From NCBI RefSeq assembly GCF_030384885.1, contig NZ_CP128613.1: a stretch of 64,000 nucleotides of DNA; one strand, 5' to 3'. The position numbers are program-made. This stretch comes from Escherichia coli. Its GTDB lineage: Bacteria > Pseudomonadota > Gammaproteobacteria > Enterobacterales > Enterobacteriaceae. Below, piece by piece: positions 12,001 through 15,000 of this stretch. Position 1 is the stretch's first letter. Every line of letters begins with the position of its first letter.

Positions 12001-15000
12001 AAAGTCGAGCACGCCGATGAGTACGATTTGTGGGGTAGCCGGGTTTAATTAATTCAGGCAGGGCAACATCATTTGCCCTGCCTGCTAATAATGATTACTG
12101 CCAGCTAATCTGCGCCCTGCCGTTTTTCTTACTCTTATACAGTCGCTCATCCGCCAGCATTTTCAAACGTTCAACGGTGGTACATTCATTTGAATGCGCT
12201 ACGCCGATACTGGTGCTCAAGTTAATACTCCCCACCTGGAAATGGACGATTTCTTTTAGAATCGATAGCAACTCCTCCAGCGTTCCGCCAGTATAAATCA
12301 CCGCAAATTCGTCACCGCCGAAGCGGTAGACTTTACCTTTATCTACCGGGATTTGTGATTTAAGGATTTTCACCACTTTCATCAACACTTCATCGCCCAG
12401 TAAATGACCGAAGGTGTCGTTAATGTTTTTGAATTTATCGACATCAAAAAGACACAGATAGCCCCCTTTTTCCGGCAGGGCTTTTAAATCTTCATCAAAG
12501 GATTTTCTGCCCATTGCTTTGGTCAGGTCGTCCAGAAACGCCGAGTTATACATACTGTAGAGTTTTTTGACATCGGCAGCCGAGAAGAAAAGCCCACCGT
12601 CCAGGACGCGTTCAAAATGGTTATTAATAATGGCTTCTTTCTCCACAATGCCACGATTAATCACTCTGCGCACCAGATAAAGGCAGCTAGCACCCGATAT
12701 CACTGCCACCAATGCAGCAAAGAAAATAATCAACATACATACCTGAAAATAAACGTCTTTTTTATACGAAAATACGTACAATCCGGTCGGCAAATAGGCG
12801 AAGTGCTCCATTGCTTCCGAAACGGTGAAGATGGCGTTTTTAGCATTATATTCATCACCGGTCACCGGTTTACCGTTCTTAAACAGAGAGAACATCAGGT
12901 TCTCGCTATCCATCGCCAGCGATTTTGACAGTAAAGAAAAACGCTCCAGACCAAGCAAAAATATCAGACTGCGATTGTGAGTTACCGGATAGAGGTAATA
13001 GACGAAGGTTTTACCGTCAAAAGAGATAAACCCTGTATTTTTGACATGTCGATACTTAACAACCTGCATAATATCTGCACAATAATTTTTCTCGAACTCC
13101 TTTACCTGAATACATTCGTCACTGGAAATCAGATAAGGACCGACATCGTACAAATAAGAGGGTGAAACCGAGTCGGCGTAAGCTGTGCGCAAGCCAACCA
13201 ACAGCTGTTCCTCCGTGGGATTTAGCGTGTTGATGAGATCAATTGCCACGCTACGCCGATATTCAGCAATATTTGCCACCGCAAAAGCAGTATCAATAAC
13301 GGACTGTTTCAGGCCATACACCCGTTCCTTTACCATTTGAGTGTAGATCCCGCAGGCAACTGCTGAAATCATGATAAAAATCAGCAGACTGACTGTAAGT
13401 ACGAACTTATTGATTCTGGACATACGTAAACTACTCTTTTACTAATTTTCCACTTTTATCCCAGGCGGAGAACGGCATGGGTTTCTGGTACAGATACCCC
13501 TGAGCCTGAACACATCCTAATTTGATTAATTCGCGCGCAACGTCTTCGCTCTCTACGCCTTCCGCAATCACCGGGATCCGGTTATAGCGTGCCAGATCGA
13601 AAATAATGCGCACAATTTTCCCCGCAGTACCGAAAATATCGCCGGTAAATTGCGAGTCCACTTTTATACTGTCTGGATTAATTTCATAAAAACGTTTCAG
13701 GTTTGACAAACCGGTGCCAAAGTCATCAATCGATATCCGTACCCCTTGTTTACGCAGTTGTTCAATATTGAGATAAAAATGTTCATTAATTCGCTCGATC
13801 ACAGTTTCAGTGATCTCAACACAGAGGCTGTTCGCCTTCAGGCCATTTTCTTTCATGATGGTGGTAAAACGCTCATGAAAGTGTGGTTCGTTTAACTGCC
13901 AGGGCGAAACATTAATATGCAGTAAGAAACCGTCCTTCAGCGACGCACGCTGACTAAAATGTCTGAATTCACCCATCGCGGTTTTAATAATTTGATAACC
14001 CAGCTCATTGATAAACCCGATATCTTCAGCAATGGTAATGAACTTCAGCGGTGAAATGATCCCCCGCTCCGCAGACACCCAACGGCACAACGCCTCCGCG
14101 CCCAGAATGGCGCGGGTGTTAATATCAACAATCGGTTGATAGACCAGGAATAGTTCGCCAATTTCCATGGCATGGCGAATATTACGCGCAATCCAGATAT
14201 TCTCTTCTATTTCGTTGAGTTTCGCGTCATCACAGAAAATAAACTCTGAGAACATATGGTCACGGATACTGGAAATCGCCAGTTTCAGTTTTTCTGCGTA
14301 ACTCCAGGCGTTTTCTCCCTTCAACGGTTCACAAATGGCAGACTTATGGATGCGCAGATTGCGGTAGCCAAAGCTGCTGTCAAAATCGTTTATCATCGCT
14401 ATTTTACGGGTAAATGTCTGTACATTTTCCCGGCACAGAAGTAAATAGAGATCGGCATTGAATGTCACGATATCGCAGCATTGCGCATATTTCTCGGCAA
14501 TTCGCTGACACAATTTCCTGACGATTTTATTGCGTTCATCAACACCAAACACCGCTTCCACGGCTTCCAGACCACACAGTTTGATGATCCCCACAGCCAG
14601 ATACTGATTATTGTTTGACTCAATAATCGCCATATTTTTAATAAAACCGCTTTCCTGATCGTAAGAGATCAGTGAGAGCAATTTATTTGACCGTTCAATT
14701 TCGGCATCTTTCATTTCCGCGATCGAATTTTTGATGCTGATAATCTCTTTCGCATCGCCTTCGCGAATTTTCAGAGCCTCGATTTGATCCGTTGAGTCGG
14801 GCAAAAATGCCAGCGTATTAACCAGCTCGGTCATTTCAGAAAATTGCCGACGGAACACACGAGTGGTCATTAAATAAACCACCAGCAATACGATAATAAT
14901 GAAAGCAAACGGCAGATAAAAAAGTTTATCTGATGCGTTCAATAAATTACCGCCAGGATAATAAAAATAGATTTCGAATAATGCGTTGTTTGGCACCGCT

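What the first reader, a model, noticed from the sequence alone, without database searches (positions are those of the whole stretch)
12055..12084. Perfect 12 bp hairpin between convergent rimO and dgcI
An unusually long perfect stem (CAGGCAGGGCAA/TTGCCCTGCCTG) without a classical U-tract; may be a bidirectional terminator or RNase-protective 3' structure.
Basis: seen in the sequence. Interest (0 to 1): 0.15.

Follow-up and report, generated by a model that had tools for sequence, protein, structure and literature searches.

The report
Shared 3'-end hairpin of rimO/dgcI
This is a real, non-random RNA hairpin in the 46-base gap between two E. coli genes that face each other; published maps from E. 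coli K-12 show transcripts ending just past it in both directions, so it is an ordinary, already catalogued kind of mRNA end signal.

Summary
Arms 12055-12066 and 12073-12084 form a perfect 12-bp stem with a 6-nt loop. It lies 6 nt after the rimO stop and 10 nt after the dgcI stop. The fold energy is about -23 to -24 kcal/mol on either strand, and neither side has a U-tract. Chance predicts 0.03 such hairpins per 64 kb.

The window is E. coli. Its hairpin allele is rare (14 of 5,426 complete genomes). The common K-12 allele differs by one compensatory pair (C-G to A-U) and one G.U to G-C change. Every short allele I opened keeps the stem.

Published K-12 3'-end maps (Bar et al. 2023; an independent 2023 RNase study) place the rimO mRNA end 6-7 nt after the stem. 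They also show a weaker dgcI-strand end 3 nt after it on the other side.

The most likely mechanism is a U-tract-less stem-loop that fixes and protects both mRNA 3' ends. RNA polymerase would be released mainly by Rho on the C-rich, untranslated antisense read-through, possibly helped by weak hairpin-driven termination at the all-A/U tails. This is a known class (Dar & Sorek 2018; Ju et al. 2019), so interest is low.

Side note: about 21% of E. coli genomes carry a RelE/HTH toxin-antitoxin cassette in place of this hairpin.

The parts
10723..12048 (+). rimO coding sequence (441 aa), stop TAA at 12046-12048
   Evidence: ORF list; RefSeq annotation of the 99.9% identical strain 2013C-4282
12049..12054 (.). 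A/T-only left flank TTAATT. In the dgcI-sense RNA it is the tail after the stem (AAUUAA...)
12055..12066 (.). 5' arm of the stem, CAGGCAGGGCAA
12067..12072 (.). Loop CATCAT. In most E. coli alleles the first base is A and pairs with U12072, giving a 13-bp stem and a 4-nt loop
12073..12084 (.). 3' arm of the stem, TTGCCCTGCCTG
12085..12094 (.). A/U-rich tail CTAATAATGA after the stem in the rimO-sense RNA
12090..12091 (+). Inferred steady-state 3' end of rimO mRNA, transferred from K-12 positions 876668/876667
   Evidence: Bar et al. 2023 Supplementary Data 2-4; PMC10667835 Table S3. Coordinate map: window p = 888758 - K-12 position,
12052..12052 (-). Inferred 3' end of dgcI-sense RNA, transferred from K-12 876706 (peak 876703-876712). 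The signal is weak
   Evidence: Bar et al. 2023 Supplementary Data 2, sheet 'E. coli - Barsheshet'
12085..12184 (+). C-rich, G-poor untranslated read-through region (antisense to dgcI), C/G 1.81; a candidate Rho loading region
11955..12054 (-). C-rich, G-poor read-through region for dgcI-sense RNA (antisense to rimO), C/G 1.67
12095..13423 (-). dgcI coding sequence (442 aa, GGDEF protein); the complement of its stop codon lies at 12095-12097

Best explanation
The palindrome is transcribed from both sides and folds in each RNA into a stable stem-loop. That stem-loop sets and protects the 3' ends of the convergent rimO and dgcI mRNAs.

Proposed sequence of events. Steps 1-2 are shown in part; steps 3-4 are inferred.
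1. RNA polymerase transcribes past the stop codon and through the palindrome, and the hairpin forms once the terminating ribosome has left.
2. Steady-state transcripts end a few nt past the stem.
3. With no U-tract, most polymerases are not released at the hairpin. They run into the antisense strand of the opposing gene, where the RNA is untranslated and C-rich/G-poor, and Rho terminates them.
4. 3'-to-5' exonucleases (RNase II, PNPase) trim the tail back to the hairpin, which blocks them.

The all-A/U tails form weak RNA:DNA hybrids, so a fraction of polymerases may also terminate directly at the hairpin.
For: Structure:
- The stem is a perfect 12 bp, -23 to -24 kcal/mol on both strands, and far beyond chance.
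- It lies 6 nt and 10 nt after the two stop codons.

3' ends in K-12:
- A rimO-strand end at 876667/876668 appears in two RNAtag-seq data sets. It is annotated 'rimO Primary', fold -23 kcal/mol, longest U run 2.
- An independent SEnd-seq-type study reports the same end at 876668.
- An opposite-strand end lies at 876706.

No U-tract: 3 and 4 U in the 8-nt tails, and the consensus scan does not call the site.

Sequence downstream: C/G is 1.8 and 1.7 in the 100 nt after the hairpin in each direction, the 97th and 95th percentile of 100-nt windows here. This matches the class described by Dar & Sorek 2018, in which stem-loops without U-tracts are followed by C>G sequence and PNPase/RNase II trim back to them.

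Conservation of pairing:
- Six short haplotypes all pair at 12 of 12 positions.
- One pair is changed on both sides (C-G to A-U) and one changes between G.U and G-C.
- In K-12 the wobble pairs only in the rimO-sense RNA (-23.0 against -20.2 kcal/mol), which points to RNA-level constraint.

Replacement by other hairpins: the toxin-antitoxin allele and other Enterobacterales have non-homologous hairpins right after the rimO stop.
Against: - No direct test of Rho dependence was available. The Dar & Sorek table, Peters et al. 2012 and Ju et al. 2019 are not held.
- The rimO end lies 6-7 nt past the stem, which also fits direct hairpin-driven termination.
- In PMC10667835 the 876668 end sits in the sheet of ends enriched in the pnp mutant (sheet identity inferred by cross-reference; minimal read counts, FDR 0.04). 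So PNPase is not needed to make this end and may instead degrade such transcripts. RNase II could still do the trimming.
- C>G is expected to some degree on any antisense strand of a coding region.
- The covariation rests on one double change, and 36 of 500 shuffles reach the observed score.
- All 3'-end data are from K-12, not from the allele in this window.
- Adams et al. 2021 Term-seq tables list no rimO or dgcI end.
Confidence: 0.45

Rival explanations
1. Non-canonical intrinsic (factor-independent) bidirectional terminator. The strong hairpin, together with the weak all-A/U RNA:DNA hybrid just behind it, is enough to release RNA polymerase at the hairpin in both directions, and the mapped ends are true termination points.
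For: - The rimO end lies 6-7 nt after the stem, close to the 7-9 nt usual for intrinsic terminators.
- The tails CUAAUAAU and AAUUAAUU have estimated hybrid energies of -5.9 and -4.8 kcal/mol, against a window mean of -10.2. That puts them in the weakest 5% and 2% of 8-mers (nearest-neighbour values recalled from memory).
- A GC-rich stem flanked by AT-only sequence on both sides is the layout of bidirectional terminators, such as ompX/opgE at 36387-36416.
- The end is present, even enriched, without PNPase.
Against: - Only 3-4 U in the tail. In the common K-12 allele the tail is CGAAUAAU, with 2 U and an estimated -7.4 kcal/mol.
- The consensus scan does not call the site.
- The dgcI-sense end lies only 3 nt past the stem, too close for canonical release.
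- The stem starts 6 nt after the rimO stop, so a terminating ribosome would cover its base (inference from ribosome footprint size).
Confidence: 0.3
2. Collision-driven bidirectional termination (Ju et al. 2019; Wang et al. 2022 preprint). The hairpin only pauses polymerases at a fixed point between the genes. Head-on collision with a converging polymerase, followed by rear-end collision from a trailing one, releases them.
For: - The genes are convergent and share one hairpin.
- 3' ends on both strands bracket it.
- That class is described as resembling neither intrinsic nor Rho-dependent terminators and as requiring a stem-loop.
Against: - The model works best for highly expressed pairs. The dgcI-strand signal is far weaker than the rimO signal: p about 1e-4 to 1, against 1e-30 to 1e-78. 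Collisions at this site should therefore be rare.
- I could not check whether this pair is among the 306 published sites; the paper is not held.
Confidence: 0.1
3. A DNA-level element: a protein-binding palindrome, a cruciform, or a recombination or insertion target. Alternatively, a relic of a REP-like element with no RNA role.
For: - The junction is structurally plastic. About 1,140 of 5,425 E. coli genomes have the flanks split here, and the three I opened carry a roughly 1-kb RelE/HTH cassette instead. E. albertii has a HEAT-repeat ORF at the same junction.
- The K-12 stem (AGGCCGGGCAA/TTGTCCGGCCT) resembles the REP half-core seen after rimO in Citrobacter.
- Polymorphisms cluster inside the palindrome.
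Against: - It is a single copy per genome: the median is 1 place per genome, rising to 2 for the window allele only because a perfect palindrome matches on both strands. K-12 annotates no REP there.
- The site lies between two stop codons, with no promoter to regulate.
- The sequence changes while pairing is kept, which is the opposite of a base-specific protein site.
- The K-12 imperfection is a G.U wobble tolerated in RNA but a mismatch in a DNA cruciform.
- There are no target-site duplications or shared repeats at the cassette borders.
Confidence: 0.05
4. No selected function. The palindrome is kept perfect by template-switch (quasi-palindrome) mutation during replication, and the transcript ends there only because any stable hairpin stops exonucleases.
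For: - Five variable sites fall in or next to the 32-nt hairpin region, and none in the flanks of the 58-nt alignment.
- The double change and the G.U-to-G-C change are what arm-to-arm templating would produce.
- The covariation statistics are weak.
Against: - Non-homologous hairpins occupy the same place in the cassette allele and in other genera. This argues that a hairpin after rimO is repeatedly retained.
- No broken-stem allele appeared among the alleles sampled from about 4,290 genomes.
Confidence: 0.1

Closest known systems
[quoted passage not shown] 2012)
   Same: - A stable GC-rich stem-loop immediately upstream of a precise 3' end.
- No U-rich tract and no clean A-tract.
- C>G sequence downstream.
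- Energy in the range of intrinsic terminators.
   Different: Rho dependence and exonuclease trimming have not been shown for this site. Here one hairpin serves two convergent genes.
Overlapping bidirectional terminators between convergent genes (Ju, Li & Liu 2019; Wang et al. 2022 preprint)
   Same: A convergent pair, a single stem-loop in a short spacer, and 3' ends on both strands bracketing it.
   Different: One partner (dgcI) appears weakly transcribed, and membership of the published list could not be checked.
Canonical bidirectional intrinsic terminator, e.g. ompX/opgE at window 36387-36416
   Same: A GC-rich hairpin between convergent genes with AT-rich flanks.
   Different: It lacks the A6/U6 runs. 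The tails are mixed A/U with 3-4 U in 8 nt.
REP (repetitive extragenic palindromic) elements acting as 3'-UTR barriers or partial Rho-dependent terminators
   Same: An extragenic palindrome after a stop codon, often between convergent genes. The K-12 arm contains a GGCCGG core like REP, and other genera have true REPs after rimO.
   Different: It is single-copy, shorter, lacks the REP consensus ends, and is not annotated as REP in K-12.

Membership tests
Canonical intrinsic (Rho-independent) terminator | GC-rich stem-loop of about 5-14 bp with a short loop | tested here: met
   12 bp, 8 G-C pairs, 6-nt loop, -23.4 and -24.3 kcal/mol
Canonical intrinsic (Rho-independent) terminator | U-rich tract of 7-9 nt immediately 3' of the stem | tested here: not met
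   CUAAUAAU (3 U) and AAUUAAUU (4 U). The scan, which needs at least 5 T in 8, does not call it. Bar et al. list a longest U run of 2 for K-12
Canonical intrinsic (Rho-independent) terminator | Factor-independent release by purified RNA polymerase | not testable with these tools
   Needs in vitro transcription
Protective 3' stem-loop of Rho-dependent transcripts (Dar & Sorek class) | Precise steady-state 3' end immediately downstream of a stable stem-loop lacking a U-tract | tested here: met
   For the K-12 allele, from published tables: 876667/876668, 6-7 nt after the stem. Transferred to the window by alignment
Protective 3' stem-loop of Rho-dependent transcripts (Dar & Sorek class) | C-over-G enrichment downstream (rut-like) | tested here: met
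   C/G 1.81 and 1.67 over 100 nt, 97th and 95th percentile. Caveat: antisense strands of genes tend that way anyway
Protective 3' stem-loop of Rho-dependent transcripts (Dar & Sorek class) | Read-through increases when Rho is inhibited (bicyclomycin) | not testable with these tools
   The relevant tables are not held. Adams et al. 2021 list no end here
Protective 3' stem-loop of Rho-dependent transcripts (Dar & Sorek class) | Longer 3' tails in pnp or rnb mutants | tested here: inconclusive
   The only data point is the 876668 end itself, enriched in the presumed pnp-mutant sheet at minimal counts, FDR 0.04
Overlapping bidirectional terminator (Ju et al. 2019) | Convergent genes whose transcripts end on both strands around one shared stem-loop | tested here: met
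   Ends at 876668 (-) and 876706 (+) bracket the hairpin at 876674-876703. The + strand signal was seen in one data set only
Overlapping bidirectional terminator (Ju et al. 2019) | Termination depends on convergent transcription (collision), not on Rho | not testable with these tools
   Needs promoter deletion or single-molecule assays. The paper and its site list are not held
REP / BIME elements | Member of a dispersed repeat family, with hundreds of copies per genome sharing the REP consensus | tested here: not met
   Median of 1 place per genome for the 39-nt query at E<=10. No repeat_region is annotated in K-12 at this spot
Rfam-curated structured RNA | Match to a covariance model at or near the gathering score | tested here: not met
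   Only a chance hit elsewhere, E = 9.9

The most novel reading that the evidence does not exclude
The rimO-dgcI hairpin marks a recombination-prone 'slot' rather than just an mRNA end. The same few bases between the two stop codons hold three different contents: this hairpin; a RelE/HTH toxin-antitoxin cassette with its own end hairpins (about 21% of E. coli); or a HEAT-repeat gene (E. albertii). Polymorphism is concentrated inside the palindrome. The hairpin could be the structural target, or the scar, of a cassette-exchange process, or a site of structure-templated hypermutation.
Probability: 0.05. Interest if true: 0.4.

Novelty: already known. Interest (0 to 1): 0.1.

Why it matters
It matters little beyond annotation. 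It gives rimO and dgcI a defined shared 3' boundary (rimO 3' UTR about 43-44 nt; dgcI-sense end about 43 nt after its stop). It is also a clean natural example of a U-tract-less hairpin serving two convergent genes, with structure-preserving allelic variation. It could serve as a small test case for separating Rho plus trimming, weak intrinsic termination and collision termination, because natural alleles differ in the tail base (G, U or A at +2) and in stem perfection.

Tried and rejected
- Rfam scan of 11500-12700 at E<=10: nothing relevant.
- Consensus terminator and promoter scan: the hairpin is not called, and no promoter sits in the spacer.
Their post-rimO hairpins are not homologous, so they cannot be aligned for covariation; they only show that some hairpin is usually there.
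- REP membership: rejected on copy number and annotation.
- Adams et al. 2021 Term-seq tables: no rimO or dgcI entry.
- No supplement text is held for Dar & Sorek 2018, Grünberger et al. 2022 and Herzel et al. 2022.
- Ju et al. 2019 and Peters et al. 2012 are not held.
- I could not read the header of the sheet holding the 876668 row in PMC10667835 Table S3. I inferred it to be the 'ends enriched in the pnp mutant' sheet, because it also contains hemL 173173, which Table S4 lists as a '3' pnp start'.
- My early impression that the window allele is common (526 genomes at >=99% identity) was wrong. Those are partial matches to the rimO end in cassette-bearing genomes; the exact allele is in 14 genomes.

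Full report
**1. The observation**

The sequence at 12055-12084 reads CAGGCAGGGCAA-CATCAT-TTGCCCTGCCTG. That is a perfect 12-bp inverted repeat with a 6-nt spacer.

It sits in a 46-nt gap (12049-12094) between two ORFs:
- 10723-12048 on the + strand
- 12095-13423 on the - strand

RefSeq annotates these as rimO and dgcI in an E. coli strain that is 99.9% identical over this stretch. The stem begins 6 nt after the rimO stop and ends 10 nt before the complement of the dgcI stop.

As RNA the spacer folds at -23.4 kcal/mol in the rimO sense and -24.3 kcal/mol in the dgcI sense. The z-scores are about -5, and none of 200 shuffles folds as well.

Chance does not explain it. Dinucleotide-preserving shuffles of the whole window gave on average 0.03 perfect hairpins with a stem of at least 12 bp and a loop of 3-10 nt. 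The window has four such loci.

There is no U-tract. The 8 nt after the stem are CUAAUAAU on one strand and AAUUAAUU on the other, and a consensus terminator scan does not call the site.

**2. Where the window comes from, and what other genomes carry here**

The window is E. coli. Among 5,426 complete E. coli genomes, 5,425 have the flanking genes. The spacer occurs in three states.

*State a: a short 46-nt spacer with this hairpin (about 4,290 genomes).*
- The K-12 form CAGGCCGGGCAA-AATCAT-TTGTCCGGCCTG is exact in 4,002 genomes.
- It has one mismatch in 260 more. In the three of these I opened, the change is G to A at the second base after the stem.
- The form in this window is rare: exact in 14 genomes, and in 8 more with A instead of C as the first loop base.
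- Single or rare haplotypes include a CCGG stem with the wobble repaired (L093), and a K-12 stem with U at tail position +2 (L092).
- One genome (L091) has a 20-nt deletion between CTGCC repeats. It moves the dgcI stop into the hairpin loop.

*State b: about 1,140 genomes in which the flanks match but the spacer does not.*
- The three I opened carry a roughly 1-kb insert with a RelE-family toxin (PF06296) and an HTH antitoxin.
- Each end of the insert has its own U-tract-less hairpin next to rimO and dgcI.

*State c: E. albertii.* A 237-aa HEAT-repeat ORF lies between rimO and dgcI.

The hairpin is single-copy in each genome. The window allele scores two places per genome only because a perfect palindrome matches on both strands. 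K-12 annotates no REP element at this spot. It is therefore not a member of the REP family, although the K-12 arm has a REP-like GGCCGG core.

**3. Is the structure conserved?**

I aligned the six distinct short haplotypes.
- All 72 stem cells form standard pairs.
- One pair changes on both sides (C-G in the K-12 type, A-U in the window type), and no single-change intermediate appeared among the alleles I sampled.
- One pair switches between G.U and G-C.
- Sliding the partner by 1-3 columns drops pairing to 26-50%.

The shuffle control is not strong: 36 of 500 shuffles reach the observed score. With so few haplotypes, the evidence amounts to one compensatory event plus one wobble event. That is suggestive, not proof.

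Two further points favour constraint at the RNA level:
- The K-12 imperfection is a G.U pair in the rimO-sense RNA but an A-C mismatch in the opposite sense (-23.0 against -20.2 kcal/mol).
- In other Enterobacterales the sequence after the rimO stop is not homologous. It nevertheless nearly always folds into a strong hairpin, with a U-tract in some (Pectobacterium, Providencia, Aeromonas), without one in others, and as a true REP in Citrobacter and Leclercia.

An alternative, non-selective source of the same pattern is template-switch correction within quasi-palindromes (from general knowledge). That would also explain why all five variable sites in the 58-nt alignment lie in or next to the hairpin.

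**4. Direct evidence on transcripts**

The window maps to K-12 by window p = 888758 - K-12 position. The hairpin corresponds to K-12 876674-876703.

Bar et al. 2023 (PMC10667835 is the other study; this one is PMC10687069) list the following.
- A 3' terminus on the - strand with peak 876664-876675 and dominant position 876668. The adjusted p values are 7e-78, 2e-68 and 3e-30 in a published RNAtag-seq data set.
- In the same sheet, a + strand terminus with peak 876703-876712 and dominant position 876706. Its p values are 5e-4, 2e-5 and 1.
- In their own LB RNAtag-seq data, a terminus at 876667 annotated 'rimO, Primary'. It has this very hairpin as the predicted fold (-23 kcal/mol) and a longest U run of 2.
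- In their 3'-UTR table, a rimO 3' UTR of 44 nt.

An independent study of RNase targets (PMC10667835) lists a 3' end at 876668 (-) in the rimO 3' UTR.

In window coordinates:
- rimO mRNA ends at about 12090-12091, 6-7 nt past the stem.
- A weaker dgcI-sense RNA ends at about 12052, 3 nt past the stem.

Limits:
- These are steady-state ends, which do not distinguish termination from processing.
- They come from K-12, not from this allele.
- The Term-seq tables of Adams et al. 2021 contain no entry here.
- The + strand end was seen in one data set only.

**5. Mechanism**

Three known mechanisms fit a U-tract-less hairpin between convergent genes. I rank them as follows.

*First: Rho termination downstream, then exonuclease trimming back to the hairpin.* This is the class described by Dar & Sorek 2018.
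- There is no U-tract.
- The 100 nt downstream in each direction are untranslated antisense RNA with C/G of 1.8 and 1.7, the composition Rho prefers.
- The dgcI-sense end lies only 3 nt from the stem, which looks like a trimmed end.
- The stem starts so close to the rimO stop that a terminating ribosome would cover its base. This makes co-transcriptional hairpin action less efficient (inference).

*Second: weak factor-independent termination.*
- The tails are made only of A and U after the first base. Estimated hybrid energies are -5.9 and -4.8 kcal/mol against a mean of -10.2 (nearest-neighbour values recalled from memory).
- The rimO end at +6/+7 is close to where intrinsic terminators release.
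- The 876668 end appears enriched, not lost, in what I infer to be the pnp-mutant sheet of PMC10667835. This is a minimal-count call at FDR 0.04.

*Third: collision-driven bidirectional termination*. This needs dense traffic from both sides, and the weak dgcI signal argues against that.

These mechanisms are not exclusive. Dar & Sorek themselves describe mixed and transitional cases. What can be said with good confidence is that the hairpin defines and protects the 3' ends in both directions. Which factor releases the polymerase is inferred, not shown.

**6. Comparison with what is known, and novelty**

The element behaves like the protective 3' stem-loops of Rho-dependent transcripts and like the overlapping bidirectional terminators of convergent gene pairs.
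- It fails the defining U-tract test for a canonical intrinsic terminator.
- It fails the copy-number test for REP.
- It matches no Rfam family.

The K-12 version is already listed, with its fold, as the primary rimO 3' terminus in a published table. I therefore rate it as already known and of low interest. The window's contribution is a rare allele whose differences from K-12 preserve the stem.

**7. Most novel reading not excluded**

The junction holds three alternative contents across Escherichia, and polymorphism is concentrated in the palindrome. The hairpin could therefore be a target or scar of cassette exchange, or a site of structure-templated mutation. I saw no target duplications or shared border repeats. 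I put this at about 5%.

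Noticed in passing
L002 2000-2999 (E. coli KFu022); also L087 and L088. Corresponds to window 12052-12096: In about 1,140 of 5,425 complete E. coli genomes the flanks match but the hairpin spacer does not. 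The three opened carry a roughly 1-kb cassette there, encoding a RelE-family toxin (PF06296) and an HTH antitoxin. The cassette has its own U-tract-less hairpins next to rimO (AGGCAGATC...GATCTGCCT) and dgcI (a 12-bp stem in the dgcI-sense RNA, UUAGUACCCCUG...AAGGGGUACUAA with two G.U pairs; 10 bp on the other strand). The dgcI stop changes from TAA to TAG. No target-site duplication was seen.
   Followed up: partly
L005 2016-2729 (E. albertii NBRC 107761): E. albertii has a 237-aa HEAT-repeat ORF between rimO and the dgcI homologue. It overlaps the 3' end of the dgcI homologue by 14 nt, and a different GC-rich hairpin follows rimO. This is a third state of the same junction.
   Followed up: partly
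L091 (E. coli 2015C-4136CT1), equivalent to window 12083-12102: A 20-nt deletion between two CTGCC repeats removes the tail and the dgcI stop. dgcI is extended by two codons and now stops at a TGA in the hairpin loop. The stem is shortened to 11 bp and the intergenic gap to 20 nt.
   Followed up: partly
window 12043-12100 across E. coli alleles (alignment A1): All five variable sites of the 58-nt alignment lie in the hairpin or 2 nt after it, and none lie in the flanks. This could reflect compensatory selection or arm-to-arm templated mutation in a quasi-palindrome.
   Followed up: partly
window 29804-29834: A second perfect U-tract-less hairpin (13-bp stem TCAGTAGCCCTGA, loop CCCTA) lies 8 nt from the end of the 530-aa ORF whose length matches ybiT. 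A REP-like sequence sits just upstream, and the tail is again UAAUAA. It has the same architecture as the finding.
   Followed up: no
window 29643-29841: Only about 200 nt separate the ORFs whose lengths match ybiV (28827-29642) and ybiT (29842-31434). K-12 has the 1.27-kb ybiU gene between them, so ybiU appears to be absent from this strain.
   Followed up: no
window 36387-36416: A textbook bidirectional intrinsic terminator (AAAAAATCCGCC-6 nt-GGCGGATTTTTT). Its K-12 counterpart lies between the convergent ompX and opgE genes. It is a useful contrast to the finding.
   Followed up: partly
window 38196-38225: A perfect 30-nt palindrome with no spacer (TTCTGCATGGTTATG|CATAACCATGCAGAA). It is identical in K-12, where it lies 9 nt after the rhtA stop and upstream of dps. 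Function not examined.
   Followed up: no
window 11700-12500 versus E. coli genomes: This stretch is only about 95.5-95.9% identical to most E. coli genomes but 99.9% identical to strain 2013C-4282. The dgcI region is therefore from a minority lineage or a recombinant segment.
   Followed up: no
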